This document shows, in pieces, positions 3,049 to 26,069 of a stretch of DNA of 38,044 nt (position 1 is its first letter; every line of letters starts with the position of its first letter). The DNA lies in IMG/VR virus record IMGVR_UViG_3300020045_002920, positions 1 through 38,044 of that record. The stretch is one strand, 5' to 3'. The translations under genes and the position numbers were made by a program. The notes under the pieces are model-generated. The model saw only the letters and a program-made list of their open reading frames with translations. It was not told the origin of the DNA and made no database searches. This DNA comes from a virus (Duplodnaviria > Caudoviricetes).

Positions 3049-3049
3049 G

Positions 3050-3445: not shown

Positions 3446-4391
3446 ATTGTTCTCCTGCCAGTTTTAATATCTCGTCTTCTATAAATGCGACCACAGAGGT
3501 AAAGCGAGAAGTGGTATGCTCTTTAAAGAAGCCCTCAACAGGAAAGCCATTGTGGTGCCTACAAAACTCTCTGATTAGTTTTTGCTCTATATTTGCAGCA
3601 TCAGTGCCCATTATCACTGGGCTGATGTATCTTTCCACAATTTCCATGTCATTCTTTGAGAGTGCCTTTCTGTGCCTTCGCTCTCGGTTTGAGAGCATAC
3701 CTGTTATGCCGTACCCAGTGATAGGCACTTCATGTCCTAGGATAGAATAAACATATATAACAGCAGATTTTGTAGGAGTAAATCCTCCAGTGGAACAGCA
3801 AGGACACCCCTGCCCGTTAAGGTGTGCGTTAGGCGTTTGTGAAAACACTCCGTGAGTAGTACAAAGTATCTTAACCTTCTCGATTGCTGTTTTATACAGA
3901 ACCAAAGAATAGTCATATCTACTACCCTGTACGTTTATGGCCTTGGCTATAAAGTCTTCTGTGTCAGATCGCATCCTCAGGGCAGAGGCAGCAAGAGCAC
4001 AATCAGGGCAGCCTTGCCCTGCTAAATGCTTTACCGGGGACTGCTGGAAGTGTCGTTGGTGCGCTTTACAGAAAATACTGACCTTGTGCCTGCAGCCTAG
4101 ATACTCTGTGTCTGTGTAGTCGTACTTATCGGCGTGCACAGCAATTGCTTTTGAAACAAACACCTCTTGTGGGTACTTTCTGAGGAGCGCTGCCTTACTA
4201 GCAGAACATTTTTTACAGGCTATCCCGTAATGCAGGGAGTCTGGGGTAGTCCAAAACACGCCGTGTTCTGGGCACACAACTTCGACTTTAACTTTCGCAC
4301 TTACATACTTTGCTTTTGTAAAGTCATACCTGTTTCCAAATATATCTTCCATTTCCTTTAGAAATAACTCTTGTGTTTTTCTTTTAGTCAT
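3432..4391 (-). CDS. Homing endonuclease-like protein with DUF723-type Zn-finger repeats and a GIY-YIG-like C-terminus
   Basis: Three YDY...KV.I.C..HG.F.Q.P..HL.G.GCP.C repeats, followed by IYVY...GYGIT...E motif. Confidence 0.75.
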   Translation of the reverse strand: MTKRKTQELFLKEMEDIFGNRYDFTKAKYVSAKVKVEVVCPEHGVFWTTPDSLHYGIACKKCSASKAALLRKYPQEVFVSKAIAVHADKYDYTDTEYLGCRHKVSIFCKAHQRHFQQSPVKHLAGQGCPDCALAASALRMRSDTEDFIAKAINVQGSRYDYSLVLYKTAIEKVKILCTTHGVFSQTPNAHLNGQGCPCCSTGGFTPTKSAVIYVYSILGHEVPITGYGITGMLSNRERRHRKALSKNDMEIVERYISPVIMGTDAANIEQKLIREFCRHHNGFPVEGFFKEHTTSRFTSVVAFIEDEILKLAGEQYGNP

Positions 4392-4402
4392 ATAAGAGTA
4401 TA

Positions 4403-4834
4403 CTAAAATGTGTGGGAAGGTTGAATTACAGCGTACTCCCCGTTTACAGGATCTTCCCCTATAGGTAGCCTACGTTGGACAATTGAGGAATCTGCCTGAT
4501 TCGCCAAAATATCAACTTTCGATACCCCGGCACAATAGATACCCGCAAGAGTAGTCCCATAAGCAGGATTTCTAATCGTCTCTTTAAGCGCCTTGAGGTA
4601 ATTTTCAAACGCTTGGTTGCCGTAAGTTTCCAATCTGTCAAGACGTGCTCTAGTGTTATGAGCCATCATCATCAGGATATAACTAGCAGCAATCTGGATT
4701 ACAGCATTCTCATTCTGTGCATTGGCGTCAAGCAAGTCCTGATACTGCTGATCTGCCATAATAGGGATATCAAGGGAGTCACCTACAGACATTCGGATGC
4801 GGCCAATAGCCGAGGTCAGATCAATAATAGCCAT
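4403..4834 (-). CDS. Head-tail adaptor protein
   Basis: 143 aa helical protein immediately after the capsid gene; RIRMSVGD...MADQQY motif is typical of adaptors. Confidence 0.7.
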   Translation of the reverse strand: MAIIDLTSAIGRIRMSVGDSLDIPIMADQQYQDLLDANAQNENAVIQIAASYILMMMAHNTRARLDRLETYGNQAFENYLKALKETIRNPAYGTTLAGIYCAGVSKVDILANQADSSIVQRRLPIGEDPVNGEYAVIQPSHTF

Positions 4835-4896
4835 TCTCGCTCCTTAGTGTTTTGTTATGTTTCTTGTTATATAAACCCTCGCAAGAAGATTCATAT

Positions 4897-4920
4897 AACA
4901 AGAGGGGCTTGCGCCCCTCT
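4897..4920 (-). terminator. Intrinsic terminator after major capsid gene
   Basis: Minus strand AGAGGGGC-GCAA-GCCCCTCT followed by TGTTAT. Confidence 0.7.
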
Positions 4921-4932
4921 CATATTTACAAC

Positions 4933-5973
4933 TTACGATGCAGCAGACTTAGCCTGAACGATCAGGGCGGGCTTCGAGACTGCATTGAGGAAGTTTGATT
5001 CCGTCTCAATTTCAATCTTGTCGCCACGTTGGCCCGGATACTCAAACGCGTACATACGCTCACCCATCGTGCCCAACAGGTCAAACTTATTGGCAGCGCC
5101 AAAGTAAGTCGTGAAGATGTCAGTGCCCGTAGGAATGAAGTACGCCTCATCAGCCGGGATCAGACGGCTGCCCGTGCCAGCACCAATCGTGCCGCCGAGT
5201 GAGTCACGCAGTTCAATATAACGAACGTTGCCATGCACAAACTCGCGGTGCATTGCAGTAGCGCCGCCAGCACGATTGCGCAGCGGCTCTTGCGAAGACG
5301 TGTAATACTGATAAGCAGCCTTGATAGAAGCGTGGGAGATCAGCTTACCAAAGAACTCTGGCGAACACAGAGCGATAATACCAGTAACCATACTGCCGTT
5401 GGCGTTATCTAGAATGTGAGCAACAGCCTCTTCGCTCTTGCCGAGTACATCAGTAGTCCCAGTGCCCAGATCAAAGAAAACGGTCTTCTTTGTGATACCG
5501 AATTCTGTATAATAATTCATGGCAACAGTGCCATTCGGAGCATACACGTCGCCAGTGGTGATAACCTTAGAACGGGCATACTCCAGCGTCCAAGCGTGGT
5601 TCTGAGCAATACGCTCCAGCTTGCGCGAACGGACGGCGGCAAGAGTTTCTTCTTGGCTCAGGTCAGCATATGCGCTCTTACCTTTGACGTCATTCGGACT
5701 AATGTAGTCGTCATAGGGGAAGTGGGGAATGGCCCAGCTACGCAGCTTACGGCCATAGTCCTTGCCAACACTGGCGCGCTCACCGCGCACCTTGTCAACA
5801 ATCAGGGCACCGTCCTTGGTGATTTCTTGGAATTGAACCACGTTGGCTTCAACACCTTCTTCAGCGAACAGGCCCAACTGACCGATAGTGCCCCACTGAT
5901 TGGGAACCACCAGCAGTTCTGGTGTCCAGTCGGCTACAGCAAACGAGTCTTGAAAATTACGGATGATAGGCAT
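4933..5973 (-). CDS. Major capsid protein (lambda gpE-like)
   Basis: 346 aa with PHFPYDD, TLEYAR...TGDV and ETESNFL motifs. Follows the decoration gene and is followed by a terminator. Confidence 0.92.
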   Translation of the reverse strand: MPIIRNFQDSFAVADWTPELLVVPNQWGTIGQLGLFAEEGVEANVVQFQEITKDGALIVDKVRGERASVGKDYGRKLRSWAIPHFPYDDYISPNDVKGKSAYADLSQEETLAAVRSRKLERIAQNHAWTLEYARSKVITTGDVYAPNGTVAMNYYTEFGITKKTVFFDLGTGTTDVLGKSEEAVAHILDNANGSMVTGIIALCSPEFFGKLISHASIKAAYQYYTSSQEPLRNRAGGATAMHREFVHGNVRYIELRDSLGGTIGAGTGSRLIPADEAYFIPTGTDIFTTYFGAANKFDLLGTMGERMYAFEYPGQRGDKIEIETESNFLNAVSKPALIVQAKSAAS

Positions 5974-5990
5974 TTACTTTTCCTTTATTA

Positions 5991-6410
5991 TTAGATGGCG
6001 GTATCAGCAACGATGCCGAGCAGAGCGAGAGCGTTATAGACAGCCAGCTTCTCAGCAGCAGTGTCAGTACCAGCACCCATAACCAACAGTTCCTTGGCAA
6101 CGCGCATAGGGCCGCGAGCGAACATCAGAACTTTCTTATCCGTGGTGGTAGCGAACGTAGCGCCAAGGGTGTTCTCGTCAGTGCCAATCAGGATGCCAGC
6201 AGCTTCCAGACCAGCACCAGAGGCCAAGGAGGCGTCTTGAACCAAATACTTGCCAGTAGCAGTAACTTTAGCAAGCACAGTACCGAAAGCGAGCGTAGCG
6301 CCTGCAGCCAGATTCACAGTAACAACTTCGCGGCAATAGCCTGTCGAAGGCTCAAATTCATTCTTAACAAGGGCACCGAAGCGCACGCTGTCTGAGGCAA
6401 TAATAGCCAT
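5991..6410 (-). CDS. Head decoration protein (lambda gpD-like)
   Basis: 139 aa, GTVLAKVTATGKY and AAGIL...ARGP motifs; directly upstream of capsid. Confidence 0.85.
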   Translation of the reverse strand: MAIIASDSVRFGALVKNEFEPSTGYCREVVTVNLAAGATLAFGTVLAKVTATGKYLVQDASLASGAGLEAAGILIGTDENTLGATFATTTDKKVLMFARGPMRVAKELLVMGAGTDTAAEKLAVYNALALLGIVADTAI

Positions 6411-6420
6411 TATATTTCCT

Positions 6421-7140
6421 TTATTTAAATGTAGCCAACCACAGAGGGTCAGACGAAGGGTTCCACCCAGAACGGATGTTTCTTAAGATAACTTGAAACT
6501 TGGAGTAATCGATGCCAAACAACCTGCCCAGAGTACGAATACCGTACGCAGGATTCTCTAGCACTGTGCCATAAACCAGATCTGCGATCTTCCACACCTC
6601 GACACTTGCATTTGGTTTCTGCCAAGGGTGGAGCGAAGCATTTTTGATTCGGGCTGCTTCAATTGCAACGGTAGGAATCCCTCTAGCGATTGCCAGCAAT
6701 GAGAGAAGCTCTTTTGTCTCCTCTTTGTGCTTTCTTCCACTGGAACTTTTCGACATCTTCTTTAGAGTTTCGTCAGATGCTTTTCTTCCAGTGCCCGCCA
6801 AAGATATTTTCCTCTTAGTTTCTTCAGAGTGCTCTCTTCCCTGCATTGGAGGCTTATCTCCACCAACTGCTAGATTCCAACCAGTATTTGGAGAGACCCT
6901 TAAAGCATTCTCTACAAATAGGCAGTAATCGAGCGAAGCCACTAGGACACAAGAATATAGCAACGATTCTCCGTGCTTTCTTATTGCATTTCCAATGGGT
7001 CGATTACTGCCTGAGGCAGCACTTTGTTTGTGCTGCTCCCACCTTCGTTCTAGGCGAGTAGAAGTAATTCCTATGTAGCCTTGGGAAGTCATATCTGTGT
7101 GTTCTGGAAGATGTATCCAATACACAAAGCACTTCTTCAT
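6421..7140 (-). CDS. GIY-YIG homing endonuclease with NUMOD3 repeats
   Basis: VYWI...GYIGIT...R..H nuclease motif, GWN, and HSEETKRKIS repeats. Confidence 0.85.
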   Translation of the reverse strand: MKKCFVYWIHLPEHTDMTSQGYIGITSTRLERRWEQHKQSAASGSNRPIGNAIRKHGESLLYSCVLVASLDYCLFVENALRVSPNTGWNLAVGGDKPPMQGREHSEETKRKISLAGTGRKASDETLKKMSKSSSGRKHKEETKELLSLLAIARGIPTVAIEAARIKNASLHPWQKPNASVEVWKIADLVYGTVLENPAYGIRTLGRLFGIDYSKFQVILRNIRSGWNPSSDPLWLATFK

Positions 7141-7652
7141 TTATTGTATTTCTGTTTCAGAATCGCCATCTCACGGGACTCGCTAGCATCTGTAGATGCT
7201 TCTGCTTCACCGGGGACACCAATTTCGGTAAACATTTCAGATTCGGCTTCTTTGGCAAAGGATGCCGCGAACCCAGAAACTACGGTACTAAAGGCACTCA
7301 TCTCCAAGCCGCTAATAGCAGCAAACGTAGCATCAAGGCCAGCATTGTCAGCCCCAATCACGTCTGCAAGCATCGTGCGCTTGTCAACAAGTTCTTTCGC
7401 TTTCGCTTGGGCTACAACCTCTGCGGCCTTAGCTTCTGCTTCTGCGGCATAACTGGACAGTTGTTCCAGCTTGCCATTCATCTCTGCCAGAAGAGCATCC
7501 TTCTGAGCAATGACGGAATTCAGTTGTTCCAGTTGGCTCACGGCCTCTTGGAGTTGGACGGACATTTCAGTGGCTGCTGTAAAACCATCTACAGCTTCCA
7601 GTGCTTCGTCGGGTTTATCACCCATCAATTTCTTCTTGAGCTGATTAAGCAT
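7137..7652 (-). CDS. Capsid scaffolding protein
   Basis: Acidic, Ala/Glu-rich coiled coil between protease and decoration genes. RBS AGGAG supports a start at 7652. Confidence 0.65.
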   Translation of the reverse strand: MLNQLKKKLMGDKPDEALEAVDGFTAATEMSVQLQEAVSQLEQLNSVIAQKDALLAEMNGKLEQLSSYAAEAEAKAAEVVAQAKAKELVDKRTMLADVIGADNAGLDATFAAISGLEMSAFSTVVSGFAASFAKEAESEMFTEIGVPGEAEASTDASESREMAILKQKYNK

Positions 7653-7663
7653 TCTTTCTCCTA

Positions 7664-8506
7664 TCATGCAAACTTAGTAGAGACGTAGTCTGAAAAGACT
7701 TCGTGATCCATTACGGATGTTACAAGGCCAAGTTGAAGACACGTATCAGCATCGAACACTTGCGCATCCATTGCCTTAATCTCTTCGTAGCTTAATCCTG
7801 TATACTTATTAACGTGGTTGATAAACTTATCGCCCAGCTTATTAACATCTTGTTGAAGCTTCTCCAAGAAGCTATCCTTGAATGAGCCGTCTTTAGCAAA
7901 AGGAACTTTGCCGGGAGTGTTGGTAATATAAATCTCTTTGTAGCCTGCTTCGTCCATCGCCTTGCTATCATCGAATAGCGCAATCATCGCTCCGATAGAG
8001 CCTGCTTGAGCCTCTGGATGGATAATGATTTCATCGCACACGCATGCAAGACCGTAGCAGGCACTGGCAGAAAACTCGTCTACGTAGGCCAGCGAATAAA
8101 CACCGGCTTCGTCCATCATCTTGCGAATAGCATCAGCAGTGCTGAACATGTGGGATGCTTGACCCCCACCAGAAGCACATTCAAAGATGATGGCCTTTAC
8201 GCCAGCTTCAACCATGTCTTCTACATCATCCATTAGGCCAAGGTAGGAAGTGCCCTCTGGAGCACACATCATCTCAACAGGCTTGTAGGTCAGTGGGCCA
8301 TTGATCTGGACAACACCAACGCCGTTGAAGATGTCAAGTTCTTCTGCTGGAAGACCAGCTCCGGGAGTACCTTGATAAATCGGATCACCAAGGACTCCAG
8401 AGTTTCTGCTCAGAAGATAGTCTGCGATGGGCTTGAAGTGGGATGGAGCAATAAGCTGCGGAGTATTAAAAACTTGCCCAGCAAGTCGTAATAGTTTATG
8501 TGGCAT
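7664..8506 (-). CDS. Head maturation protease, peptidase S49 family
   Basis: SGGG, SASACYGLA and AGSIG motifs of the S49 family; located between portal and capsid. Confidence 0.88.
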   Translation of the reverse strand: MPHKLLRLAGQVFNTPQLIAPSHFKPIADYLLSRNSGVLGDPIYQGTPGAGLPAEELDIFNGVGVVQINGPLTYKPVEMMCAPEGTSYLGLMDDVEDMVEAGVKAIIFECASGGGQASHMFSTADAIRKMMDEAGVYSLAYVDEFSASACYGLACVCDEIIIHPEAQAGSIGAMIALFDDSKAMDEAGYKEIYITNTPGKVPFAKDGSFKDSFLEKLQQDVNKLGDKFINHVNKYTGLSYEEIKAMDAQVFDADTCLQLGLVTSVMDHEVFSDYVSTKFA

Positions 8507-9251
8507 GGTTTTCCTTTTCTTTTAGGTAGGCTTCTCGCCACGTCCAGTAGTCTGCATCTGTGTAAGGATTCCAACCGGCCTTAAATGACTTAATCATGTG
8601 GAGCATATTGCTTGCAGTTGAACCAAACAAGTTTGCCAGATTACCACAGCCCAAGCCTACAATGGTGTGCACATCGTAAATCTGATGGGCTATCACCCAA
8701 GCGTCTTTAACGCACTGAGGGTGGTTATAAAGCCTTTTTGATTTAGAGAGCCTCGCCTTACATTCATCAGTATGTTTGTGGCCGGGAAGTCCTGTTTTTG
8801 CCTTGCTTATGTTTCTGCAGGTCTCTTCGGAAACAACTTTACCCTTGGCGGCCTTAGACATATTACTTCTGTGCTCATCAGAGAATTTTCTTCCTGACAT
8901 GGTTGCAGAGATTTTGCTCTTAGCTTCGGGAGATAGCTTCTTCCCCAAAGTAGGGGCCGAGCCACCCAAGGCTATATTCCACCCTACTTGTGGTAAAGGC
9001 CGCAGTTTATGTTCCAGCGCAAGCCCGTATTCTTTATCACAAAGACAAAGTGTATCTACAACGAGATTCTCCGCTCCATATTTGTTTATCGCCCGGTACA
9101 GCTTTACACAGGAGGTTGCTCGATAACTCCCCTTTGCACTGGTAACGTGCTCCTTGTATCGCTCTGCCACTCCTCTGCTAGTAAATCCAATATACCCTTC
9201 ACTAAACATATCCGTGTGTTCAGGAAGGTGAATCCAATAAACTTCCGCCAT
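8496..9251 (-). CDS. GIY-YIG homing endonuclease with NUMOD3 repeats
   Basis: VYWIHLPEHTDMFSEGYIGFT; close paralogue of 6421..7140. Confidence 0.85.
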   Translation of the reverse strand: MAEVYWIHLPEHTDMFSEGYIGFTSRGVAERYKEHVTSAKGSYRATSCVKLYRAINKYGAENLVVDTLCLCDKEYGLALEHKLRPLPQVGWNIALGGSAPTLGKKLSPEAKSKISATMSGRKFSDEHRSNMSKAAKGKVVSEETCRNISKAKTGLPGHKHTDECKARLSKSKRLYNHPQCVKDAWVIAHQIYDVHTIVGLGCGNLANLFGSTASNMLHMIKSFKAGWNPYTDADYWTWREAYLKEKENHAT

Positions 9252-9264
9252 TCACCCTCCTGTG

Positions 9265-10752
9265 TTATTCTGCGTTTTCTGTATTTGCAGAGGATTTATC
9301 TCCACCGCCCGGCTTCTTCGCCGTGCCCTCACCTGTAACTCCAACCTCCATCCCGTCGCCGGATCTGGAAGAAGACTCGCCAAGCAGTTCCTCATGCACA
9401 GGTTCATCCTCTGGATAGCCTTGCAAGCCAAAACCAGCTTCACGAACATAGTTCATAAATGCACGATCTTTTTCGATTGCTGAAACGCTAACAACACGCT
9501 GTACCAGCTTACCGATACTGTCTTGAGAAGGCTTACTAATCTTGTCAAACTTCAACTGAACGCATTCTGAGGCGTCCCACTGATTCTGTGCGTAAATCCA
9601 AGGGATGATTGTCTTGTTAAATACAGACTCGATTTCTTTCAATCGGTATTGGAGACCAATCTCAACCAGCTCTGTTTTTCCCTCAATCATTGACTGAGAG
9701 CCAGTGCCATTGCTTCCGACTTGGAGAATGTCTGCAAACAAGCTCAGAAGAATCCGGCTGTCCCAACGAGAGATAATCTCACTAGTATCAAAAGCCTTTG
9801 CGCCACTTGAGCTGAGAAGCTCCGCAGTGAACATGTCTTCTTTGCTTTCAGCATTACGATCAGATGGGATAATTAGTGCAGCTTGTTCTCCAAGAGAGAC
9901 GTTCCGTGCAACCTTTTTAAAGTCCTCGGCAGCAGCCTTCTTACCTGCGTCTGCATTTGGATCAAGGTAGCCTGCGGGCATCTTCATCAGGAACAAACCT
10001 GACAAATCTCGTGCTGCGCCAGTAATCTCTGCATCTTCGATTGAACGCTTATAGCGCCAAGCATTATATGCTCCACGGAGGATGCTCACACCTTCCGGGT
10101 TATTGTTGATTGGCATACTCGTGAAGATTGCCAGCTTCTCGACTGGAAGAACAATCTCAGCGCCATTTTTAGCCAGTGAAGAGTAGCGGGAGCCATACTG
10201 CATATTAGCGGTAGATTGCTCAACAGCCAACAGCTCGCGGCCATCTTCGCTAAACACCCAACCAGAGATGGTTGATTGTGAGCGTGGCTTCAGTCCTTTA
10301 AGACCAATTAAGCCGTCCTTGTGAGCACTCTTCCCCGGAAGCCTGCGCTTGGCTTGCAGCTCAAACACTGAGAAGCCATAACGGAGGTAGGAGAGAATAG
10401 CTACAAAGGTGGAAAAGAAACTTTCGTCCATGTCGTTAAACACGGTTTCGATAAACTTCTTTTCTTCTTTTTGTTTCGGAGTGGCTCCAGCAGGCGGGAC
10501 AATTTTGTAACTCGCTTCTGCCAGATATACCGTGTAGAACTGGAGGGCTGCAGAGACTGTAGCATCCTTAGACATTTCATCCACGGTTTTGATTCTCTGG
10601 GGCATGCGCCAAACTTTGTCCGACTCTTCAAGAATCTGTTTAGAGACGTTCTTGAGGCCGGGATAACCCGTTTCAGAAAATGCAGCAATACGGGGAGCAC
10701 CTGCAACGTCTGGATTTTTCTCCAAGAGGCCAGTGTTCAACTCTTCAGCCAA
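9265..10752 (-). CDS. Portal protein (DUF935-like)
   Basis: 495 aa after terminase, with YGFSVFE and NPEGVSILR..Y..W..K motifs. TTG start with GGAGG RBS. Confidence 0.88.
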   Translation of the reverse strand: MAEELNTGLLEKNPDVAGAPRIAAFSETGYPGLKNVSKQILEESDKVWRMPQRIKTVDEMSKDATVSAALQFYTVYLAEASYKIVPPAGATPKQKEEKKFIETVFNDMDESFFSTFVAILSYLRYGFSVFELQAKRRLPGKSAHKDGLIGLKGLKPRSQSTISGWVFSEDGRELLAVEQSTANMQYGSRYSSLAKNGAEIVLPVEKLAIFTSMPINNNPEGVSILRGAYNAWRYKRSIEDAEITGAARDLSGLFLMKMPAGYLDPNADAGKKAAAEDFKKVARNVSLGEQAALIIPSDRNAESKEDMFTAELLSSSGAKAFDTSEIISRWDSRILLSLFADILQVGSNGTGSQSMIEGKTELVEIGLQYRLKEIESVFNKTIIPWIYAQNQWDASECVQLKFDKISKPSQDSIGKLVQRVVSVSAIEKDRAFMNYVREAGFGLQGYPEDEPVHEELLGESSSRSGDGMEVGVTGEGTAKKPGGGDKSSANTENAE

Positions 10753-10800
10753 TGTAAGCCTCCTTTAGTGTTATTGTTCATGTGAATTCTTATACCATGT

Positions 10801-10829
10801 ATTATAGCACAGTAATTTTAGCAATGCAA
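10801..10829 (-). promoter_or_regulatory. Sigma70-like promoter for portal/head operon
   Basis: Minus strand TTGCAT-17 nt-TATAAT with extended TG. Confidence 0.7.
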
Positions 10830-10900
10830 GTGTTTTACTAAATATATTTTAAATATCTAATAGAACACTTGCATATCTAAGGGGAAATGGTTAGATTTGG

Positions 10901-12262
10901 TTAGGCTAGTGGGGAGGGGCGGGTGTAGGAGTCGTTCCCGAGACTGAAGGTTGGGAGGGTGTGCGCCCTTGCAAGTGCCTTAAATCCACTAGAAATTGAG
11001 TCACAAATATCGTCCTTCGTACCGCGTTCGCCGCCACTGAAGACGCTTAATTCCTTAAACATGTCATCATTCCAGTGACCCCTTACATAGAATACTGCCT
11101 TGGCTTCGCACATGCTGCAGAAAGGAAGGAACTTGGAAAGTTTCGATGAGTGGCCGGAGACAACCTCTGTCTTCGTAGGAATCCCCCTTTCAGCTAATTC
11201 TTTTACCATAAACGCATTAGCAAACTTCCCACCAGCACCCGGATCTCTCGGAATACCGATGGTGCATTCTTCAGTTCCATCAATAAATGCCTGCCTCTCA
11301 ATTTCATCTAGGATGCCTTGGAGGCTTTTCCTAAACCGAAGCATATCCGCAATGTAATAGTTTCCTGTGCTTTTGCAACGGCCTATTTTTACCCCCACCG
11401 ACCAGTCTGGATTAGGGAGTGCGGATGTAGGCTCAGAACTGCCGAAGTCATAATATCTAACCCAAGTAATGTCTTGGGGCAAGTCTTGAACATCAATCAT
11501 CTGCCCTTCTGTAAAACTCTTGTTCCAATAGACGCCACCGTTAGCTACCGCCGTCCAACTTCCCTTTAAAAAACGTAGTTGGTTAATCTTAGACTGCGAC
11601 AAGAGATTTGCCAAATACTCTGGATTATTCTTCAGTAGGATAGTATTGTCATACACGGACAGTGGAATCATCCTGACACTCTTAGGGATAAAATCCACCC
11701 CCAGTGTTTTACCTGTTCCAAATTCTTCATACAAGGCTTCTGGTGACGGGCCAAATCTAACCTTGTCGTCAATAACCACAAACCATCGGATGATATTCTC
11801 TGTACCTTCTCGCGGAACACCCGTATCTTCATCTAGTAAAGGGAGCAACCAATCAAACAGATAAGAGGTGTTTGAAGGATTGGTGGACAGAATCATCTGC
11901 AACTTACCCTTAAAGTTTGCAGATCGCATACGAGTGAGGAGGAATAGAATTTGTTTCTCAGTCCATTCAGCCGCTTCGTCAACGAGGACATTTGTAAGCT
12001 GGCTACCTTGCCATCCCGGCAAGTCCCTGTCATCACCAATTGCAGCAAACTGCAGGGTAGCTCCGCTGGGAAATACCCACTTCTTGGCCTGAGCCTTATA
12101 GATGCCCCCGAAATACGGATAAATCTGGTGTGACTCATCAATGATACCACCGGGGGCAGAAAGTTGTGGAAAACTTTGCCTGAATACTACGCCACGGAAG
12201 TTTTTATCGGAAAGATATGCCAGATATTTAGTCAAGCACATTCTCGTTTTTCCTCCACCTGC
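10901..12262 (-). CDS. terL: Terminase large subunit, exon 2
   Basis: Begins AGGGKTRMCL (second half of Walker A). Contains Walker B VLVDEA, STNP, nuclease RYYDFG and KDDICDS. Confidence 0.92.
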   Translation of the reverse strand, partial: AGGGKTRMCLTKYLAYLSDKNFRGVVFRQSFPQLSAPGGIIDESHQIYPYFGGIYKAQAKKWVFPSGATLQFAAIGDDRDLPGWQGSQLTNVLVDEAAEWTEKQILFLLTRMRSANFKGKLQMILSTNPSNTSYLFDWLLPLLDEDTGVPREGTENIIRWFVVIDDKVRFGPSPEALYEEFGTGKTLGVDFIPKSVRMIPLSVYDNTILLKNNPEYLANLLSQSKINQLRFLKGSWTAVANGGVYWNKSFTEGQMIDVQDLPQDITWVRYYDFGSSEPTSALPNPDWSVGVKIGRCKSTGNYYIADMLRFRKSLQGILDEIERQAFIDGTEECTIGIPRDPGAGGKFANAFMVKELAERGIPTKTEVVSGHSSKLSKFLPFCSMCEAKAVFYVRGHWNDDMFKELSVFSGGERGTKDDICDSISSGFKALARAHTLPTFSLGNDSYTRPSPLA

Positions 12263-12507
12263 CTAGAGGAATGTTCACAATAATGCGTTAATCTTATTGC
12301 CGCAATTAAGCTGCTGCATGTTGCCATGCAGAACAGGTCATGTCTTATGACTTTCGTCATCTCTCTGTTTCGAGCCACTTGGCCCTACGTCTTTCGACTG
12401 ATCGTTACACACTTTCCACAAATTGCTGTGGAGTTGGCTCGGCATTTTCCCATAAGGACGTTCGCCGAATTAAGAGAGTTTGTTTAAAGTGGAGGCACAG
12501 GATTTTC
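12263..12507 (-). ncRNA. Group I self-splicing intron (IA2-like, 245 nt, no ORF) in terL
   Basis: Exon 1 ends in U and the intron ends in G. IGS GCCUCCAC, P (AAUUCGGCGAA), Q (AAUGCCGAGCC), R (GUAACGAUCA), P7.1/P7.2 hairpins, P3 CUCUCU/AGAGAG, P8 AUGAC-GAAA-GUCAU, S (AAGACAUGACC) and P9 UGCAUG-GCAA-CAUGCA are present. Removal restores GGGAGGGKT in frame. Confidence 0.92.
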
Positions 12508-12600
12508 ACCACCACCAGTAATAATTACATCCGTAGTTTCATCCATCAACAGAATACGTTGGTTGATGCTACAGGGAGCAAAGAGCATCTGTTCAGCCAT
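12508..12600 (-). CDS. terL: Terminase large subunit, exon 1 (31 codons)
   Basis: MAEQMLFAPCSINQRILLMDETTDVIITGGG joins exon 2 in frame to give a 484-aa protein. Confidence 0.88.
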
Positions 12601-13723
12601 TGATTAGTTCCTCTACTTTGTTGAGGACATCCGTCACATTGACGCAAAAAGCCTCTGTACTTCCTTCAAACTTGTAAGTAGGACTTTTAGCAAAACCTCT
12701 CAACCACCTCAGAAGGGTGTTTTCAAGATTATTACAGGAAACTCCGTCCATTTCATACGTTTTAATTACGTCAAATTTCTGCATAGCACTCTTACTTACA
12801 CTTCGTGCTCGTTCTTCTGCGGAGATGTTTGTAATTCCAACTTTTACAAAATCAGGTGATTGCAGAATATATAGTGTTCCGGGGAGGACTTGACTAAATC
12901 CACCCTGAGCGCAGGATGGGCATCCCATCCTGCGTGTGTGGTTATCAGGGGTCTGCCAAAAGACTTTCTGGTGTGTGTTACAGAAAAGTTCTACGCGCGT
13001 CCTTGCAGTGATATAGACTACCCTTGAATAGTCATACTTATCTCCATGAACTTCTCGTGCGGAGAGAATAAACTTCTCAACTGAGCCTCGTTTCATGTCC
13101 CCGTTTGCCTTTGACGCGCAGATTGGACAGCCAACCCCAACTAAATGTTGGTGCGGATACTGGTGGAAAACACCATGTAGCTTACAAGTTATTCCCACCT
13201 TTATTCTTGCTGTTTTATAATCAACATTCTCGTAGGAATACTTGCCACCATGAATTACCAAAGACCTCTCTACAAATTCTTCGGTTGAAGATGTCTGTTT
13301 TTCTGTGCGAGAGAGGGCCGAGCACTGTGGGCACCCTGAAGGCGACCGAAGATGGTCTTGCGGGGTTTGAGAGAATTGGCCGTGGACGGGGCAAGATATT
13401 ACGACAGGTATTTTTGCTCCAACATACTGTACAAGAGAGTAATCAAGTCGCTCGCCATGTAAGGTCTTAGCTCGTGCAACAAAATCATCTGTTGATATTC
13501 GGCTGACTGCAGGCTTGTGTTTCAGGCAGCCACAAGATTTGGTATTCTTGCTTGATATATTACATCCAGCTAATACTACATTTTCTGTGCCACATTCGCA
13601 AGAGCAACGATACCATGCCATCTTTCCATTCATGCCAACAAACTCTACTACGGTTAGAAGTCCATGTTTTTGGCCGACCTTGTTCTTAACCCTGTCTGGC
13701 CGCAACGGCTGCGTAAACTCCAT
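12593..13723 (-). CDS. Free-standing homing endonuclease-like protein (CxCxCG N-terminus, DUF723-type repeats, GIY-YIG/T5orf172-like C-terminus)
   Basis: Three Zn-finger repeats and C-terminal LYIL...KVGIT...R...E...GSTEAF. Its stop overlaps the terL start. Confidence 0.8.
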   Translation of the reverse strand: MEFTQPLRPDRVKNKVGQKHGLLTVVEFVGMNGKMAWYRCSCECGTENVVLAGCNISSKNTKSCGCLKHKPAVSRISTDDFVARAKTLHGERLDYSLVQYVGAKIPVVISCPVHGQFSQTPQDHLRSPSGCPQCSALSRTEKQTSSTEEFVERSLVIHGGKYSYENVDYKTARIKVGITCKLHGVFHQYPHQHLVGVGCPICASKANGDMKRGSVEKFILSAREVHGDKYDYSRVVYITARTRVELFCNTHQKVFWQTPDNHTRRMGCPSCAQGGFSQVLPGTLYILQSPDFVKVGITNISAEERARSVSKSAMQKFDVIKTYEMDGVSCNNLENTLLRWLRGFAKSPTYKFEGSTEAFCVNVTDVLNKVEELING

Positions 13724-13959
13724 CACCCCTCCCATCGCTCACTACGAATCAGCTCACTACGATTCGAGCTGTTAATCACCGTCACAGCCATTTTCCCGGC
13801 CTTCCCTGCAGACTCCAAGAAAGCCTTCATCTCTGCTAGGGTCTTGTACTTAGTATCTGGAGAATCCAGAACACTTTCCACGTACCCGTCCGCATCTACG
13901 AGGCACTCCCGCAGAGAGAACTTTCCACCGATACTGATAATCCTAATCTCTTTTTCCAC
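13723..13959 (-). CDS. Hypothetical protein (78 aa)
   Basis: GTG start at 13959 with AGGAG RBS; its TGA overlaps the next ATG. Confidence 0.6.
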   Translation of the reverse strand: MEKEIRIISIGGKFSLRECLVDADGYVESVLDSPDTKYKTLAEMKAFLESAGKAGKMAVTVINSSNRSELIRSERWEG

Positions 13960-14085
13960 AATCTTTCTCCTAAATGTAAAATGTAAAAGCCCACAACTGG
14001 GCTGCCTCAAAATGAGACTCCAGAAGTGGGCTGAGTTACACCCTACATTGTGTCCTGTCACGCAGGCTTCTGTTTGTTCTTGCTC

Positions 14086-14160
14086 TGGAGCATCCTGCGA
14101 AGACTGATTTCGCGGTCATCTGCTTGGAAGGCAGATGTTTTACCATTAAACTAAGGATGC
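14086..14160 (-). tRNA. tRNA-Gly(UCC) with non-canonical T-loop
   Basis: Acceptor GCATCCT/AGGATGC, U73, encoded CCA, anticodon arm TCTGC-CTTCCAA-GCAGA. T-arm reads GCGAA-ATCAGTC-TTCGC. Confidence 0.8.
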
Positions 14161-14169: not shown

Positions 14170-14236
14170 GGCGGGAAGCTAGAATCGAACTAACACCTCC
14201 TGTTGGTACAGGTATTCGCCATGAACTCTTTCCCGC
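14170..14236 (-). pseudogene. tRNA-like element with shortened anticodon loop
   Basis: Acceptor GCGGGAA/TTCCCGC and T-arm GTTAG-TTCGATT-CTAGC are intact. Anticodon arm is CCTGT-ACCA-ACAGG (4-nt loop); no CCA. Confidence 0.7.
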
Positions 14237-14243: not shown

Positions 14244-14320
14244 TGGCGAACAGGGTAGGAATCGAACCCACAACCTACGGATTTGGAATCCGTTGCTCTG
14301 CCTGATTGAGCTACCTGAAC
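14244..14320 (-). tRNA. tRNA-Trp(CCA)
   Basis: Anticodon arm ACGGA-TTCCAAA-TCCGT, canonical D and T arms, G73-CCA. Acceptor stem has two U:U mismatches. Confidence 0.85.
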
Positions 14321-14485: not shown

Positions 14486-15066
14486 TATGCAACCTCAGGA
14501 GAAGGCTTTTGCATTTGAAGTGGGCGCTGCCTCATCGCTATCGGGACAAATGGTTCTGACACCATAAAGTCCATCTACCAAGCGATCCCGTGTTCAGATC
14601 ACTGACAGTCGGGTTATCGGTCTATTTCTAAACGCCCACACGGCTGGAGACTGCCTAGGTGCCTGCCTTTTCTGTTTGCCTCATCAGCATTTCAAGTGCT
14701 GTGTCGGTTTCCTTTGGGCTTATGACCAACCTCCATGCGTGTAAGCTGTGAGTAGCAGGAATGATCTGCAAAGCCAAGCTACTGTCATTCCTTCTTGAGC
14801 GGATTTTACGCCAAGAAGCAGTTCCTGAGTATTACCCACAAGGAAGAACTCTTTCACCACAACAGCTTTAGTTGTTGGAAGTGTGGGATCAAGCGTAGAG
14901 TTCTTCCTTGTGCCTCCTGATCTTCAAGAGGACAAGCCTGCTTACAAACACAGGATGCTTTTTCGTCGCATTGCTTCAATACTCTTCACGCCTTCATTAG
15001 CAGGAAGGTTACCGCACTTCATCCCCCGAGGCCGAAAGGAGGGGAAACTTCCTCGGGTGATTCCAT
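14486..15066 (-). ncRNA. Candidate large structured non-coding RNA (~580 nt)
   Basis: No credible ORF. Has its own promoter and more than 12 complementary segments, including a perfect 16-bp helix, long-range helices and a pseudoknot (see findings). Confidence 0.7.
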
Positions 15067-15072: not shown

Positions 15073-15101
15073 ATTGTAACATGCGAATACTCAGAAGTCA
15101 A
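15073..15101 (-). promoter_or_regulatory. Sigma70-like promoter for ncRNA/tRNA transcript
   Basis: Minus strand TTGACT-17 nt-TACAAT with extended TG. Confidence 0.75.
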
Positions 15102-15114: not shown

Positions 15115-15513
15115 CTAGGCACCAACAACCCGTTCCATAGAGAGAATAACCGAGGGTTCGAAGCGAATTATAGGCTTGTCATCTTCCTCTTCAACATCCC
15201 TTGGCCCTATCTTCGGGGCTGCTGCCATTACAAGTCTAGCTTGTGCTATGGAACGCCCAAGTTGATCCTTGCTGATGGATTCTGACACAGCGATGCGTGT
15301 TGCAAGCAATGTCTTAGCCACATCTACGCGGAGTTTCGGATCAGCCTCTTTATCCTGAAGCACTTCTACAAGTGTTGCAATGCTATCAGGAGTTAGTTTG
15401 TCCAGTTGCTTCAGAAGTTTCTGAAGATCATTCCTCCGTTCAAAGCTAATCTGTGTTACAGGTTCCATCTTTTGTTTAGGCTTCTTCACTGAAAGCTGTT
15501 CTTCGTTGCTCAT
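15115..15513 (-). CDS. Putative terminase small subunit
   Basis: 132-aa helical protein upstream of terL with an acidic/beta C-terminal tail. Assignment rests on position and size only. Confidence 0.45.
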   Translation of the reverse strand: MSNEEQLSVKKPKQKMEPVTQISFERRNDLQKLLKQLDKLTPDSIATLVEVLQDKEADPKLRVDVAKTLLATRIAVSESISKDQLGRSIAQARLVMAAAPKIGPRDVEEEDDKPIIRFEPSVILSMERVVGA

Positions 15514-22926: not shown

Positions 22927-23062
22927 TTGGCTAGACACCAATCGTGGCGCAAAGAGCAGGCAAGCATACACACTATCGCTGATTCAGTCTGCGATGGACA
23001 CTGATTCCCACTGTGAGGAAAAGACTAATGGTTCAATCAACAATAACGACGAAGCAAGCTAA
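22883..23062 (+). CDS. Ribbon-helix-helix (CopG/Arc-like) DNA-binding protein
   Basis: QMTLILPKRMIDWLD...SRQAYTLSLIQSAM matches the RHH beta-alpha-alpha pattern. Confidence 0.55.
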   Translation: MELQMTLILPKRMIDWLDTNRGAKSRQAYTLSLIQSAMDTDSHCEEKTNGSINNNDEAS

Positions 23063-23576
23063 TTACTATCAGGCCATTACGGCTATTACTTGTGCTGCAT
23101 CTGTAACCAATACTTCCACAGGAGAGGTGCTACGGCTATCGCTGTTTGATAAGCATGTGCTGTGTTACATCAAACACTTCTGTGCAGTGTATGAACAGAC
23201 TGGTGGCGCTATGTTTGAGGCGCAGGAGTCCATTGCCGAGAGCACAGGTATGGACAGGAAGACAGCGCACAGAAGTATCAAACGCTTGTGCGATCTAGGT
23301 GTTCTTGTGAAGACAGTGTTCTTTGATACAAAAGGCGTATCTAAGAAGAAGCATGCTTCATATGTTTGTGCTAACCTGTCGGATGGCCTGTTCATCTTCA
23401 CGCGTGAGTGGAAGTCTGTGGACAGCAAAGGCAAGGAAATGTTGTGCAAGGAGTACTATGTGATTGTGGATATTGTGAAGAAGGTTGTGGACAAGCCTCT
23501 ACAGAAAGCACCTGCCCCGCCTAAGAAGGTTATCGTACCAACAGTTGGAGAGGATTTCGATGAGTGCCCATTTTAG
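23028..23576 (+). CDS. Winged-HTH protein, putative replication initiator
   Basis: QESIAESTGMDRKTAHRSIKRLCDLGVL is an HTH typical of phage initiators; acidic C-terminus DFDECPF. Confidence 0.6.
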   Translation: MVQSTITTKQANYYQAITAITCAASVTNTSTGEVLRLSLFDKHVLCYIKHFCAVYEQTGGAMFEAQESIAESTGMDRKTAHRSIKRLCDLGVLVKTVFFDTKGVSKKKHASYVCANLSDGLFIFTREWKSVDSKGKEMLCKEYYVIVDIVKKVVDKPLQKAPAPPKKVIVPTVGEDFDECPF

Positions 23577-23636
23577 CCTTGACTTCCCCAACTCCCTGTG
23601 CAACAATGGCTACATTGACTAACGAAGGAGGAACAC

Positions 23637-23969
23637 ATGAAAGACAGCAACATTGTAGTAGCCCTTAACCGGGTACTCACAGAGTATTTTGGTACTCCCT
23701 GTCTGTTCCACAGCTTTACCGCCGAGGTTGCCACAGAGATTAGTTACTATGCAGGGGCACTGCAGGGTCAGTATGGGGCTACCCTAGAGTTTTACGCAAA
23801 TAAGCCTCTACCTACTAAAATGTCTGATTCTGACAGCACTTATGTGGCTACTTCAGAATGTGTGGCTACAGAAACTTGTGATTTTTACAAGCACCATTGT
23901 TTCCTGCTTCTTGGTAGCCGCCTCCGCAAGAAACTGTTGAAAGTAATGTTGAAGCATAACGCAGGCTAA
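23637..23969 (+). CDS. Hypothetical protein (110 aa)
   Basis: GGAGG RBS; promoter-like TTGACT at 23579. Confidence 0.7.
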   Translation: MKDSNIVVALNRVLTEYFGTPCLFHSFTAEVATEISYYAGALQGQYGATLEFYANKPLPTKMSDSDSTYVATSECVATETCDFYKHHCFLLLGSRLRKKLLKVMLKHNAG

Positions 23970-23980
23970 GGAGAATTATC

Positions 23981-24412
23981 ATTACTCGCGTAAACATCGT
24001 CCCTGTTACAGAATTAGCCGATCAGCATTTGTACGCTAAGTACCGCGAAATCCGCCACGTCCCGGCTTCCCTTAAGCGCAGCTTGAAAGCTCGTGGCCTG
24101 CAAGGCGTGCTCAAGGCTATCCCCAAACAATTCACCCTTAACACAGGTCACGTCCTGTTTTTCATGGACAAAGGGGCATACCTAAGCAAACGCTTCGATG
24201 AACTCCGTTCAGAACTTATCAAGCGTGGCTATAACATCCCTGACGATGTTGTGTTCGATAGTGAAGGTATCTTTGAGCAGCATAAATGTCTTCAGCAGGA
24301 TTACTTGCCAGATGACAAAGCTTATGCTATCATTCGGCAACGAATTGCAGAGAAACTGGCTATGAAGCCTAGTTGGTATAAATATTTTGGTAAGCCTTTG
24401 AAGGGGGAGTGA
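23981..24412 (+). CDS. denV: Pyrimidine-dimer DNA glycosylase / endonuclease V (ATT start)
   Basis: (M)[23 protein letters not shown] aligns with T4 DenV [38 protein letters not shown] and KPSWYKY are also conserved. Confidence 0.9.
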   Translation: [143 protein letters not shown]

Positions 24413-24413
24413 A

Positions 24414-24650
24414 ATGCAGGATATTCCGCAAATAGTCTTCCAAGTAGAGGGCGTCAGAGACCCCGTAGCTGTCCTGAGAGAGCTTGTTATAAAAGCTGGT
24501 CACACTCCAGACGAAGATAGCTTCAGTCAGTGGAGTGAATATGTAAACGGGCCTTTTGTACTGAAGTCCTTCGATGATCTGTACAGAGTATTGTCTGAAA
24601 ATGGCTGTGAAATTGACTGGGAAAATAAAGTGTGCTATGCACCAAAATAA
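24414..24650 (+). CDS. Hypothetical protein (78 aa)
   Basis: GGGGAG RBS; tightly coupled to denV. Confidence 0.65.
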   Translation: MQDIPQIVFQVEGVRDPVAVLRELVIKAGHTPDEDSFSQWSEYVNGPFVLKSFDDLYRVLSENGCEIDWENKVCYAPK

Positions 24651-24653
24651 CCC

Positions 24654-24683
24654 TTGACTTACACCCATAAACCATGATATAAT
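24654..24683 (+). promoter_or_regulatory. Sigma70-like promoter
   Basis: TTGACT-18 nt-TATAAT with extended TG. Confidence 0.65.
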
Positions 24684-24718
24684 GCCGTTAATGCCTCTCC
24701 AACCAAAGGAGTAATCCA

Positions 24719-25033
24719 ATGTACAAACTTATCGCAATCCTTTTACTGGCCTTGTTCTCGCAAGCTGTGTTTGCACAAGCGGATGAAGGCCGTCCTGTTG
24801 CAATGTATCAGGATAAAGAGGGCAATGTACTGGTAGTAACTGACAGAGCCTGTATTATTAAAGGTGTTGCAGATACCTCAGCAAATACTCTCATCTTACA
24901 CACGCCTAAAGGTAAGAGGGTTGGGTGCATTGGCAAGGTGAAGGATAAAGTGATAGCTGCTTTTGAAGAGGGCGATTCGATTAAGGTGTTTGATATTACA
25001 AGCTTACGATTTAGTAAGCTTGAGGAAGTTTAA
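24719..25033 (+). CDS. Secreted/periplasmic hypothetical protein
   Basis: Sec signal peptide MYKLIAILLLALFSQAVFA; one Cys pair. Confidence 0.75.
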   Translation: MYKLIAILLLALFSQAVFAQADEGRPVAMYQDKEGNVLVVTDRACIIKGVADTSANTLILHTPKGKRVGCIGKVKDKVIAAFEEGDSIKVFDITSLRFSKLEEV

Positions 25034-25041
25034 TTCACAAT

Positions 25042-25116
25042 AGGTGCATAGTTAAGTGGAGATAGCAGGAGTCCTCTAAACTCTAGTCCCTAGTTCGATT
25101 CTAGGTGTGCCTACCA
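25042..25116 (+). tRNA. tRNA-Arg(UCU) with C at position 33
   Basis: Acceptor AGGTGCA/TGTGCCT, A73-CCA, A20 in D-loop, anticodon arm GGAGT-CCTCTAA-ACTCT, T-arm CCTAG-TTCGATT-CTAGG. Confidence 0.85.
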
Positions 25117-25140
25117 AACAATTAACCAAAGGAGAAATAA

Positions 25141-25416
25141 ATGAAAGTATTAGGTATTCTCACAGCAGCAATTATCAGCATCTTCCTGAAAGCTTTTGTG
25201 ACAGCAAAACTATGGGCATGGTTTATTGTGCCTACGTTTGCAGCTCCGCAGATTTCGCTTCCTGTGGCTTATGGTATCTCTATTATCTCTGTGCTGCTTA
25301 CTTATCAACGTGGTGTGAAGAGTGATGAACGCACAGTAGGGGAATCACTTAGTACTGCGGTTGGAATGTCTCTTGCAGCACTTCTCTTTGGCTATCTCGC
25401 AACTCTATTCATGTAA
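25141..25416 (+). CDS. Membrane protein (about 3 TM)
   Basis: Hydrophobic, with LWAWFIVPTF motif and AGGAG RBS. Confidence 0.75.
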   Translation: MKVLGILTAAIISIFLKAFVTAKLWAWFIVPTFAAPQISLPVAYGISIISVLLTYQRGVKSDERTVGESLSTAVGMSLAALLFGYLATLFM

Positions 25417-25425
25417 AGGAACAAA

Positions 25426-26043: not shown

Positions 26044-26052
26044 ATGTATCCA

Positions 26053-26069
26053 AGCCCTTCGGGGCTTTC
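26053..26069 (+). terminator. Short hairpin/terminator
   Basis: AAGCCC-TTCG-GGGCTT followed by TC. Confidence 0.55.

What the first reader, a model, noticed from the sequence alone, without database searches (positions are those of the whole stretch)
14486..15066. Promoter-driven ~580-nt ornate non-coding RNA heading the tRNA cluster
Seen in sequence: a near-consensus promoter (15073-15101, minus) fires into ~580 nt with no credible ORF in an otherwise densely coding genome. The region is rich in complementary segments: perfect 16 bp 14837-14852/14897-14912; 15025-15031/15051-15057; 14827-14833/14978-14984; 14791-14801/14809-14818; a pseudoknot formed by 14751-14756/14778-14783 crossing 14757-14764/14785-14792; long-range 14494-14500/14823-14829 and 14504-14513/14767-14775; 14520-14526/14633-14639; 14638-14649/14731-14742; 14534-14539/14581-14586; 14703-14708/14725-14730. 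GAUGAGGCA occurs twice. Established: GOLLD and ROOL RNAs are large ornate phage/prophage RNAs found beside tRNA genes, described mostly from Gram-positive lineages and metagenomes. Inference: this is a GOLLD/ROOL-like or new large ncRNA in a phage of a Gram-negative host. I cannot assign a family by eye.
Basis: partly seen in the sequence, partly recalled or inferred. Interest (0 to 1): 0.88.

Follow-up and report, generated by a model that had tools for sequence, protein, structure and literature searches.

The report
Swappable phage small-RNA cassette array
This gene-free stretch is a string of small folded RNA modules that close phage relatives swap in and out ahead of their tRNA genes, not one conserved giant RNA; it is likely cut into separate small RNAs, two of which are predicted to block ribosome-binding sites, though none has been tested.

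Summary
The promoter, the lack of coding and the listed helices are real, but the ~580-nt 'ornate RNA' is not a conserved unit. No Rfam family matches. Five close relatives share the promoter and the 3' block, yet the DNA between them runs 356-969 nt (985 here), and none covers more than 175 of the 581 nt. The region is a chain of 30-125-nt modules joined at recurring overlapping junctions: a hairpin with a conserved anti-Shine-Dalgarno loop, a rod, acceptor-stem-closed tRNA-like modules and a second CU-loop hairpin. Three modules show compensatory changes. Likely mechanism (inferred): one late precursor cut by tRNA-processing nucleases into small RNAs; the CU loops would damp translation at GGAG-type sites, which non-structural genes use more than structural ones (p=0.003). 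It is not GOLLD/ROOL; it works like phage tRNA-operon small RNAs (PAK_P3 sRNA2) plus cuckoo/'toxic' sRNAs. This scan noted similar anti-SD arrays before on other DNA; no look-alike by sequence.

The parts
15115..15513 (-). Upstream 132-aa gene, no family; by position likely a small terminase subunit (inferred); marks the 5' border of the array in relatives
   Evidence: No PHROG or Pfam hit at cut-off; homologues precede the same promoter in L002-L004 and L018, and a distant one in L012
15073..15101 (-). Sigma70-type promoter with extended -10; predicted start near 15066
   Evidence: conserved in 5 of 5 close relatives
15021..15061 (-). Module M1: 10-11-bp stem with a 17-19-nt loop holding CCUCCUUUC (15042-15034), complementary to Shine-Dalgarno sites
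   Evidence: 8 sequences: 7 of 10 pairs with a change on both sides, 83.5% of cells paired vs 61.8% shuffled; loop kept on unrelated stems in L018 and L012
14955..15020 (-). Module M2: variable small hairpins; near-identical in L010, replaced in the others
   Evidence: fold z=-0.41, not independently supported
14937..14954 (-). Module M3: short CCUG..GUAAG-CAGG hairpin, sequence-conserved junction block
   Evidence: present in 5 of 5 close relatives
14907..14936 (-). Module A: CUUG...CAAG hairpin; its CAAG can instead close rod B
   Evidence: z=-2.67; a different, longer A in L010; alternative pairings
14837..14912 (-). Module B: rod closed by a 16-bp helix (CAAG...CUUG) with a variable interior
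   Evidence: z=-5.92; 7 sequences: 8 of 16 pairs changed on both sides, 96.2% paired vs 83.0% shuffled; two copies in L004
14748..14839 (-).
   Evidence: same closing stem and T-arm-like end in L018 3101-3225; z=-1.64
14638..14742 (-). Module D: closed by ACACG..UGGAG / CUCCA..CGUGU; no homologue found
   Evidence: z=+0.13; weakest module
14520..14639 (-). Module E: 7-bp acceptor-like stem GUGGGCG/CGCCCAC followed by UUCA, with a conserved GGUAGAUG/CCGAU internal loop
   Evidence: z=-2.89; vs L002, 7 of 16 pairs changed on both sides and 31 of 32 cells paired; same N-UCA trailer as the next tRNA-like gene
14487..14514 (-). Module F: hairpin with a CCUUCUCC loop (second anti-SD-like display)
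   Evidence: present in window, L002, L004, L006, L010, L018, L012 on varying stems, absent in L003
14416..14485 (-). Conserved tRNA mimic: 8-bp acceptor, 5-bp T stem, stunted anticodon arm; missed by Rfam and by ARAGORN at default settings
   Evidence: 7 of 21 pairs compensatory over window, L002, L006
14331..14403 (-). tRNA-Thr(UGU)
14244..14320 (-). tRNA-Trp(CCA)
14170..14236 (-). Degenerate tRNA-like gene
   Evidence: relaxed ARAGORN, no anticodon assigned
14089..14160 (-). tRNA-Gly(UCC)
   Evidence: Rfam alignment
14048..14081 (-). Conserved 3' block closing the array in all close relatives
13988..14003 (-). Terminator-like hairpin plus U run

Best explanation
The stretch is a chain of small structured RNA modules that differ between close phage relatives at the head of the tRNA operon; it is likely transcribed late as one precursor and likely cut by host tRNA-processing nucleases into separate small RNAs, of which the two CU-loop hairpins are predicted to damp translation by covering Shine-Dalgarno sites. 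Shown: the promoter and 3' block are conserved while the modules between them are gained, lost, duplicated or replaced; M1, B and E keep their pairs through compensatory change; modules meet at recurring overlapping junctions (CUUG-CAAG-CUUG|GUG...CAC|UUCAA); the M1 and F loops are conserved on changing stems and complement SD sites. Inferred: a single precursor; RNase P cutting 5' of the GUG-opened acceptor-like stems, with 3' trimming at the UCA trailers; exchange of modules by recombination between co-infecting relatives at the shared blocks; anti-SD loops acting in trans on host and early-phage mRNAs while AAGGAA-type structural genes are relatively spared; tRNA-shaped modules serving as processing signals or as decoys for tRNA-targeting defences.
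For: Promoter-to-3'-block lengths 985 (window), 960, 356, 969, 876, 547 nt. Five relatives together cover 298 of 581 nt by BLAST, singly at most 175; 14813-14531 has no BLAST-level match. L010 keeps the 5' arm of helix 14978-14984/14827-14833 exactly but not its partner; L002 keeps the 3' arms of 14494-14500/14823-14829 and 14504-14513/14767-14775 (0 and 2 mismatches) but not their partners. Covariation within modules. In L003 a tRNA-Gly-like gene sits where modules C/E sit; module E ends in the same N-UCA trailer as the tRNA-like gene after it. G-U outnumber A-C 15 to 2 in curated helices on the transcribed strand (10 to 2 in M1 and B, whose registers were chosen on Watson-Crick pairs alone). 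L004 holds a type I hammerhead in an E-type slot (0 of 1000 shuffled sets). The M1 loop pairs better with leaders of 31 plus-strand non-structural genes (mean -10.4 kcal/mol) than with those of 21 minus-strand structural/lysis genes (-7.7; Mann-Whitney p=0.003); F loop -9.7 vs -8.0, p=0.02. Precedents: PAK_P3 sRNA2 is an abundant late RNA between tRNAs with a T-loop sequence (PMC4933390, passages). CU-rich anti-RBS sRNAs attenuate growth in Burkholderia (PMC5688073, passages). The best capsid matches include Limnohabitans (54%) and Curvibacter (47%) phages.
Against: No RNA data at all: processing, ends, timing and targets are untested. Only 7 related loci; four share one dataset prefix in their contig names, so covariation counts are few events, and module order could partly come from chimeric assembly of co-occurring strains. 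The structures counted were drawn from the same sequences, which favours them. The M1-M3-A-B block keeps its order in all 7 loci that have it, so it may be one ~180-290-nt RNA rather than four. The global fold pairs M1's 3' arm with the E/F junction (13 expected pairs), and about 46 of 178 expected pairs run between my modules. Folding z does not tell RNA from DNA or strand from strand (RNA minus -2.7, RNA plus -2.4, DNA minus -4.0), and an unselected G-U vs A-C scan gave 41 vs 34. Modules M2, C and D are not significantly stable alone. 12 of 21 structural/lysis genes still carry GGAG-type sites; strand is only a proxy for timing, starts were chosen mechanically, and 6 HNH genes plus 6 ORFs without SD were left out. 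Modules C and E lack an encoded CCA.
Confidence: 0.55

Rival explanations
1. One large multi-domain RNA with a fixed frame (M1 at the 5' end, F at the 3' end, conserved junctions) and freely exchanged inner domains, working as a single scaffold or cage as GOLLD does with its variable 5' part.
For: [quoted passage not shown]
Against: L003 lacks everything after B, including F; L002 puts a mini-ORF before M1 and a tRNA-like gene before F; L004 duplicates A-B-E; the three cross-module helices that could be tested are not kept; whole-region z falls to -1.09 without B; no GOLLD/ROOL model match at E<=10.
Confidence: 0.15
2. The modules act mainly as RNA decoys against host anti-phage systems: tRNA-shaped pieces would soak up anticodon or tRNA nucleases, and the CCUCCUUUC loop would mimic the 16S rRNA tail rather than bind mRNAs; diversity would reflect an arms race.
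For: The modules turn over far faster than the flanking protein (86-94% identity in three relatives); a conserved tRNA mimic with a stunted anticodon arm follows the array; several degenerate tRNAs are swapped among relatives. That many 16S tails end in a CCUCCUUUC-like sequence is recalled, not checked here.
Against: No host or defence system is known for this phage; the SD asymmetry between gene classes is expected from mRNA binding but not from decoy action; no direct evidence.
Confidence: 0.15
3. The modules are cis-acting processing and stability elements for the tRNA operon: an A/B strand switch would control exposure of the next acceptor stem, and the released pieces would have no function of their own.
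For: The CAAG shared by hairpin A and rod B is kept in all 7 loci; predicted partner flips between relatives (downstream 0.81-1.0 in six, upstream 0.87 in L006); B's terminal GUG overlaps the next stem; L004's hammerhead could serve processing.
Against: Does not explain single-stranded loops conserved on changing stems (M1, F), nor the conserved internal loop of E; L012 expresses its tRNA with only two CU-loop hairpins and no A/B.
Confidence: 0.1
4. The inverted repeats act in DNA (packaging or recombination signals beside the terminase genes), or are decaying tRNA-gene debris without function.
For: DNA-parameter folding gives the stronger z (-4.0); the array lies between a likely small terminase gene and the large terminase; modules M2 and D show no stability or covariation.
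Against: G-U over A-C bias on the transcribed strand; compensatory changes; T-arms, a hammerhead and tRNAs in the same slots; L003 and L012 lack most of the array.
Confidence: 0.05

Closest known systems
[quoted passage not shown]
   Same: Non-tRNA RNA inside a lytic phage's tRNA cluster just upstream of the terminase; T-loop-like sequence. My reading finds an acceptor-like stem, T arm and CCA at L021 4308-4429, partly overlapping the annotated sRNA2 (4345-4478). Function unknown.
   Different: No sequence match in the phage collection; here there are many modules, swapped among relatives at shared junctions; expression shown for PAK_P3, not here.
ROOL and GOLLD RNAs (PMC5737381 and 10.1101/2024.12.08.627333, passages read)
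   Different: No covariance-model match; no conserved whole; no conserved multistem/pseudoknot architecture; multimers untested.
Cuckoo sRNAs (PMC4615179, passages read)
   Same: Conserved anti-SD loop on highly variable, compensating stems; modular build.
   Different: Loop motif here is CCUCCUUUC or CCUUCUCC, not CCUCCUCCC; the two hairpins lie ~500 nt apart (adjacent only in L012); phage-encoded.
Betaproteobacterial 'toxic'/double-hairpin sRNAs, RF02278 (PMC5688073 and PMC4603805, passages read)
   Same: CU-rich unpaired stretches complementary to ribosome-binding sites; the nearest cultured capsid relatives include phages of freshwater Betaproteobacteria.
   Different: No RF02278 match; not a free-standing 57-92-nt transcript; embedded in a phage tRNA precursor.
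ICP1 ~800-nt non-coding RNA (PMC7567579, passages read)
   Same: Long ORF-free transcribed gap near lysis genes in a lytic phage of a Gram-negative host.
   Different: No BLAST similarity and no CU motifs; ICP1 has no tRNAs.

Membership tests
ROOL | Match to the Rfam covariance model | tested here: not met
   (none at E<=10)
ROOL | [quoted passage not shown] | tested here: not met
   Length varies 356-985 nt between fixed ends; cross-module helices not kept; definition from PMC5737381
ROOL | In phages, near tRNAs | tested here: met
GOLLD | Match to the Rfam covariance model | tested here: not met
GOLLD | Universally conserved 3' domain | tested here: not met
   the 3' half is the most variable part and is absent in L003
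GOLLD/ROOL | RNA-only multimeric nanocage | not testable with these tools
   needs SEC-MALS or cryo-EM
Cuckoo sRNAs | Loop motif CCUCCUCCC | tested here: not met
   loops listed
Cuckoo sRNAs | 2-4 adjacent motif-bearing hairpins | tested here: not met
   M1 and F are ~500 nt apart in the window; adjacent only in L012
Cuckoo sRNAs | Conserved anti-SD loop on compensating variable stems | tested here: met
RF02278 toxic/double-hairpin sRNA | Match to the Rfam model | tested here: not met
RF02278 toxic/double-hairpin sRNA | Unpaired CU-rich stretch complementary to RBS | tested here: met
   predicted unpaired probability 0.71-0.89 in 6 of 7 loci, 0.32 in L002; duplexes
Phage tRNA-operon small RNAs (PAK_P3 sRNA2, T4 band C/D type) | Non-tRNA structured element co-located with the tRNA genes | tested here: met
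Phage tRNA-operon small RNAs (PAK_P3 sRNA2, T4 band C/D type) | Discrete abundant RNA late in infection | not testable with these tools
   needs infection RNA
Type I hammerhead (window GAUGAGGCA motifs) | Core CUGAnGA, GAAA, UH with three stems | tested here: not met
   descriptor finds none in the window array, one in L004; core motif recalled
tmRNA, RNase P RNA, 6S, group I/II intron | Rfam or ARAGORN match within 14486-15066 | tested here: not met

The most novel reading that the evidence does not exclude
The head of this phage tRNA operon is a combinatorial RNA-cassette platform: uncatalogued RNA effectors (anti-SD hairpins, rods, tRNA mimics, a ribozyme, a mini-ORF) are plugged in and out at standard overlapping helix junctions, released by the host's tRNA-processing machinery, and diversify like a counter-defence arsenal, with an anti-SD RNA that shifts ribosomes from host and early mRNAs to AAGGAA-led structural genes.
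Probability: 0.2. Interest if true: 0.82.

Novelty: new variant of a known kind. Interest (0 to 1): 0.55.

Why it matters
Small RNAs in lytic-phage tRNA clusters have been seen since T4 bands C and D and still have no function (PMC4933390). Here natural swaps among close relatives mark module boundaries and give ready-made variants, so that question becomes testable module by module. The anti-SD loops with a matching difference in SD use between gene classes point to an RNA-only route to translational takeover. It also warns that ORF-free, helix-rich gaps of ROOL size next to phage tRNAs need not be single ornate RNAs.

Tried and rejected
Rfam at gathering and E<=10: only tRNAs and chance hits. 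blastn of the region against 50,697 phage records: no match. Motif scans: 0 in metagenome contigs and 0 in genome contigs; the protein-profile scan of metagenomes found no relative. The module E motif found only L002's contig. The module C motif found L018's contig and one hit inside coding DNA of an unrelated phage (L043), dropped as chance. L020 was dropped as unrelated. Covariance models of M1 and B recovered only training loci plus L006's B: M1 8 of 25 sources, three further hits at E>=1; B one further hit at E=0.048 in L028, not followed. Sequencing runs: no RNA holder listed; the one DNA run gave short contig pieces only; neither bears on expression. Hammerhead reading of the window's GAUGAGGCA: rejected. 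RNase P, group II intron, HDV-like, twister and pistol likenesses were considered by eye from recalled motifs and dropped for lack of any Rfam match. The unselected G-U/A-C scan was uninformative. The RNAalifold consensus suffered from misregistered alignments, so I used anchored helices and named structures. The fetched ends of DC31 did not hold the array position; P26059A has short non-coding gaps near the same genes, not analysed. Literature: searches showed no paper on these modules. The 10,006-candidate viral RNA catalogue (PMC10690425) could hold them: five motifs were absent from the 3 supplement files searched, but files 1, 2 and 4 and three oversized files could not be searched.

Full report
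Context. The window is a 38-kb fragment of a virus record, 44% complete. Minus-strand genes run endolysin, spanin, a 132-aa unknown, the non-coding gap, tRNAs, terminase, portal, protease, capsid and tail. The terminase is about 34% identical to PAK_P3/KPP10-type phages. The best capsid match is Limnohabitans phage DC31 (54%), followed by two Pseudomonas phages (49%, 47%) and Curvibacter phage P26059A (47%). A Gram-negative host is likely; a betaproteobacterial one is only a guess.

Observation. The promoter, the absence of a credible ORF and all 12 listed helices are in the sequence. Only the 16-bp helix is beyond chance alone. Shorter helices are modestly enriched (>=7 bp: 14 vs 8.8+-2.7), and a repeated 9-mer occurs in 46 of 100 shuffles. 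The region folds at z=-2.54, but at -1.09 without that rod. Rfam gives nothing but tRNAs, even at E<=10.

Relatives. Protein and motif scans gave five close loci with the same promoter (L002, L003, L004, L006, L010) and two more distant ones (L018, L012). Four of the five share a dataset prefix in their names, so they are not independent samples. Between the promoter and an invariant 3' block the length is 985 nt here and 960, 356, 969, 876 and 547 nt in the five. They cover 298 of the 581 nt together and at most 175 singly. L010 matches the first 135 nt at 97% and then diverges. L002 matches 14515-14320 at 98% but little upstream. L003 stops after rod B and runs into a tRNA-Gly-like gene. L004 repeats the A-B-E unit. 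L002 adds a 28-aa mini-ORF. L012 has only two CU-loop hairpins, one more hairpin and tRNA-Thr.

Modules. M1 (15061-15021) keeps a CCUCCUUUC loop while its stem changes: 7 of 10 pairs change on both sides in 8 sequences, two of which align in a shifted register. Rod B (14912-14837) keeps 96% of its cells paired with 8 of 16 pairs changed on both sides in 7 sequences; L006's copy was left out as nearly the same as L002's. E (14639-14520) has one homologue, with 7 of 16 pairs changed on both sides around an invariant GGUAGAUG/CCGAU internal loop. C (14839-14748) shares a 7-bp closing stem and T-arm-like end with L018. F (14514-14487) shows a CCUUC(U/C)CC loop in 7 of 8 loci. M2 and D have no support beyond their position. 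These structures were drawn from the same sequences, so the counts lean in their favour, and they count sequences, not events. Modules meet at overlapping junctions: CUUG opens A, CAAG closes A or opens B, CUUG closes B, its GUG opens an acceptor-like stem, and CAC-UUCAA ends it. Just downstream lies a conserved tRNA mimic with an 8-bp acceptor and a stunted anticodon arm.

The single-RNA reading. If this were one ornate RNA, helices between distant parts should be kept. Three could be tested: L010 keeps one arm of 14978-14984/14827-14833, and L002 keeps one arm each of 14494-14500/14823-14829 and 14504-14513/14767-14775; the partners are missing. The proposed pseudoknot has no linker between its two 3' strands, and only one of its helices is readable in L018. 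In favour of a larger unit: the M1-M3-A-B order is fixed in 7 loci, M1 and F frame the array in 7 of 8, and the global fold pairs them. I give a framed single RNA 0.15.

RNA or DNA. Folding z does not decide. Curated helices carry 15 G-U and 2 A-C pairs on the transcribed strand, whereas an unselected scan gave 41 and 34. The slots also hold tRNAs, T-arms and, in L004, a type I hammerhead found in 0 of 1000 shuffled sets and missed by Rfam. RNA is the more likely level of action.

Mechanism. Inferred from established tRNA-operon biology: one precursor is cut by RNase P at the 5' side of acceptor-like stems and trimmed at the 3' side. Module E ends in the same N-UCA trailer as the tRNA mimic after it, and in L003 a tRNA gene occupies that slot. 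A single-stranded loop conserved on a changing stem implies recognition by sequence. The M1 loop is predicted mostly unpaired in 6 of 7 loci and complements SD sites. It pairs better with leaders of the 31 plus-strand non-structural genes than with those of the 21 structural/lysis genes (-10.4 vs -7.7 kcal/mol, p=0.003); capsid, decoration and protease genes use AAGGAA. Six HNH genes and six ORFs without SD were left out, strand stands in for timing, and other causes of this SD difference are possible. I put the modular architecture at about 0.75, the anti-SD action at about 0.45, and the whole account at 0.55. Decoy and cis-processing roles are the main rivals and could hold for different modules at once.

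Known systems. Not GOLLD or ROOL: model match and conserved architecture were tested and not met (definitions from PMC5737381 and 10.1101/2024.12.08.627333, passages read). It works like the small RNAs of phage tRNA operons: PAK_P3 sRNA2 is late, abundant, lies between tRNAs and carries a T-loop sequence, and T4 bands C and D remain without function (PMC4933390, passages). The CU loops work like cuckoo RNAs (PMC4615179, passages) and Burkholderia double-hairpin sRNAs (PMC5688073 and PMC4603805, passages), but fail their motif and model tests. ICP1 already offers a long ncRNA in a lytic phage of a Gram-negative host (PMC7567579, passages), unrelated in sequence. For PMC10690425 I read passages and searched 3 of its supplement files; its models could not be searched, so prior listing of these modules there is not excluded. 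More distant phages (L028, L039, L040) carry other UCUCCU-loop hairpins near the same genes. Earlier notes of this scan describe such arrays on other DNA. They are unchecked leads: my modular, anti-SD reading was on record before, while the SD-class test was run after reading one of them.

Verdict. A real, uncatalogued array of small structured RNAs with mosaic exchange; a new variant of a known kind; interest 0.55.

Noticed in passing
L004 about 2121-2172 (+): Type I hammerhead ribozyme with a G-U first pair in stem II, inside an E-type module of the same array; 0 of 1000 shuffled sets; Rfam missed it.
   Followed up: partly
window 14485-14416 (-): Conserved tRNA mimic, 8-bp acceptor plus 5-bp T stem and stunted CCCC-AA-GGGG arm; 7 of 21 pairs compensatory.
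   Followed up: partly
window 14236-14170 (-): Degenerate tRNA-like gene; similar in its 5' part to L006's tRNA-Gly-like gene.
   Followed up: no
window 12557-12314 (-): Group I intron match below gathering score (33 bits, E 1e-5) before the main terminase ORF; relatives carry group I introns there too.
   Followed up: no
L002 4469-4555 (+): 28-aa mini-ORF with a strong SD inserted between the start site and M1.
   Followed up: no
L002 about 4942-5040 (+): tRNA-like gene with a greatly extended anticodon arm between modules E and F (read).
   Followed up: no
L004, L006, L010, just after module F: A further shared ~110-nt module absent from the window (79-84% identity), no Rfam match.
   Followed up: no
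L039 3333-3403, L040 3322-3398, L028 3475-3520: Rods with several UCUCCU loops near the tRNA/terminase genes of more distant phages.
   Followed up: partly
L026, L030, L035 tRNA regions: Other short non-tRNA elements shared between these distant phages, read by eye.
   Followed up: no
window, genes 178-22127 (-) vs 23013-37044 (+): Many structural genes use AAGGAA-type SD sites; plus-strand genes mostly GGAG-type (12 of 21 vs 27 of 31).
   Followed up: yes
window 1432-13735 and 27221-27934: Six HNH/homing endonuclease genes interspersed in the head, tail and PhoH regions.
   Followed up: no
window 33680-35444 (+): A helicase (phrog_1967) matched by two overlapping ORFs in different frames.
   Followed up: no
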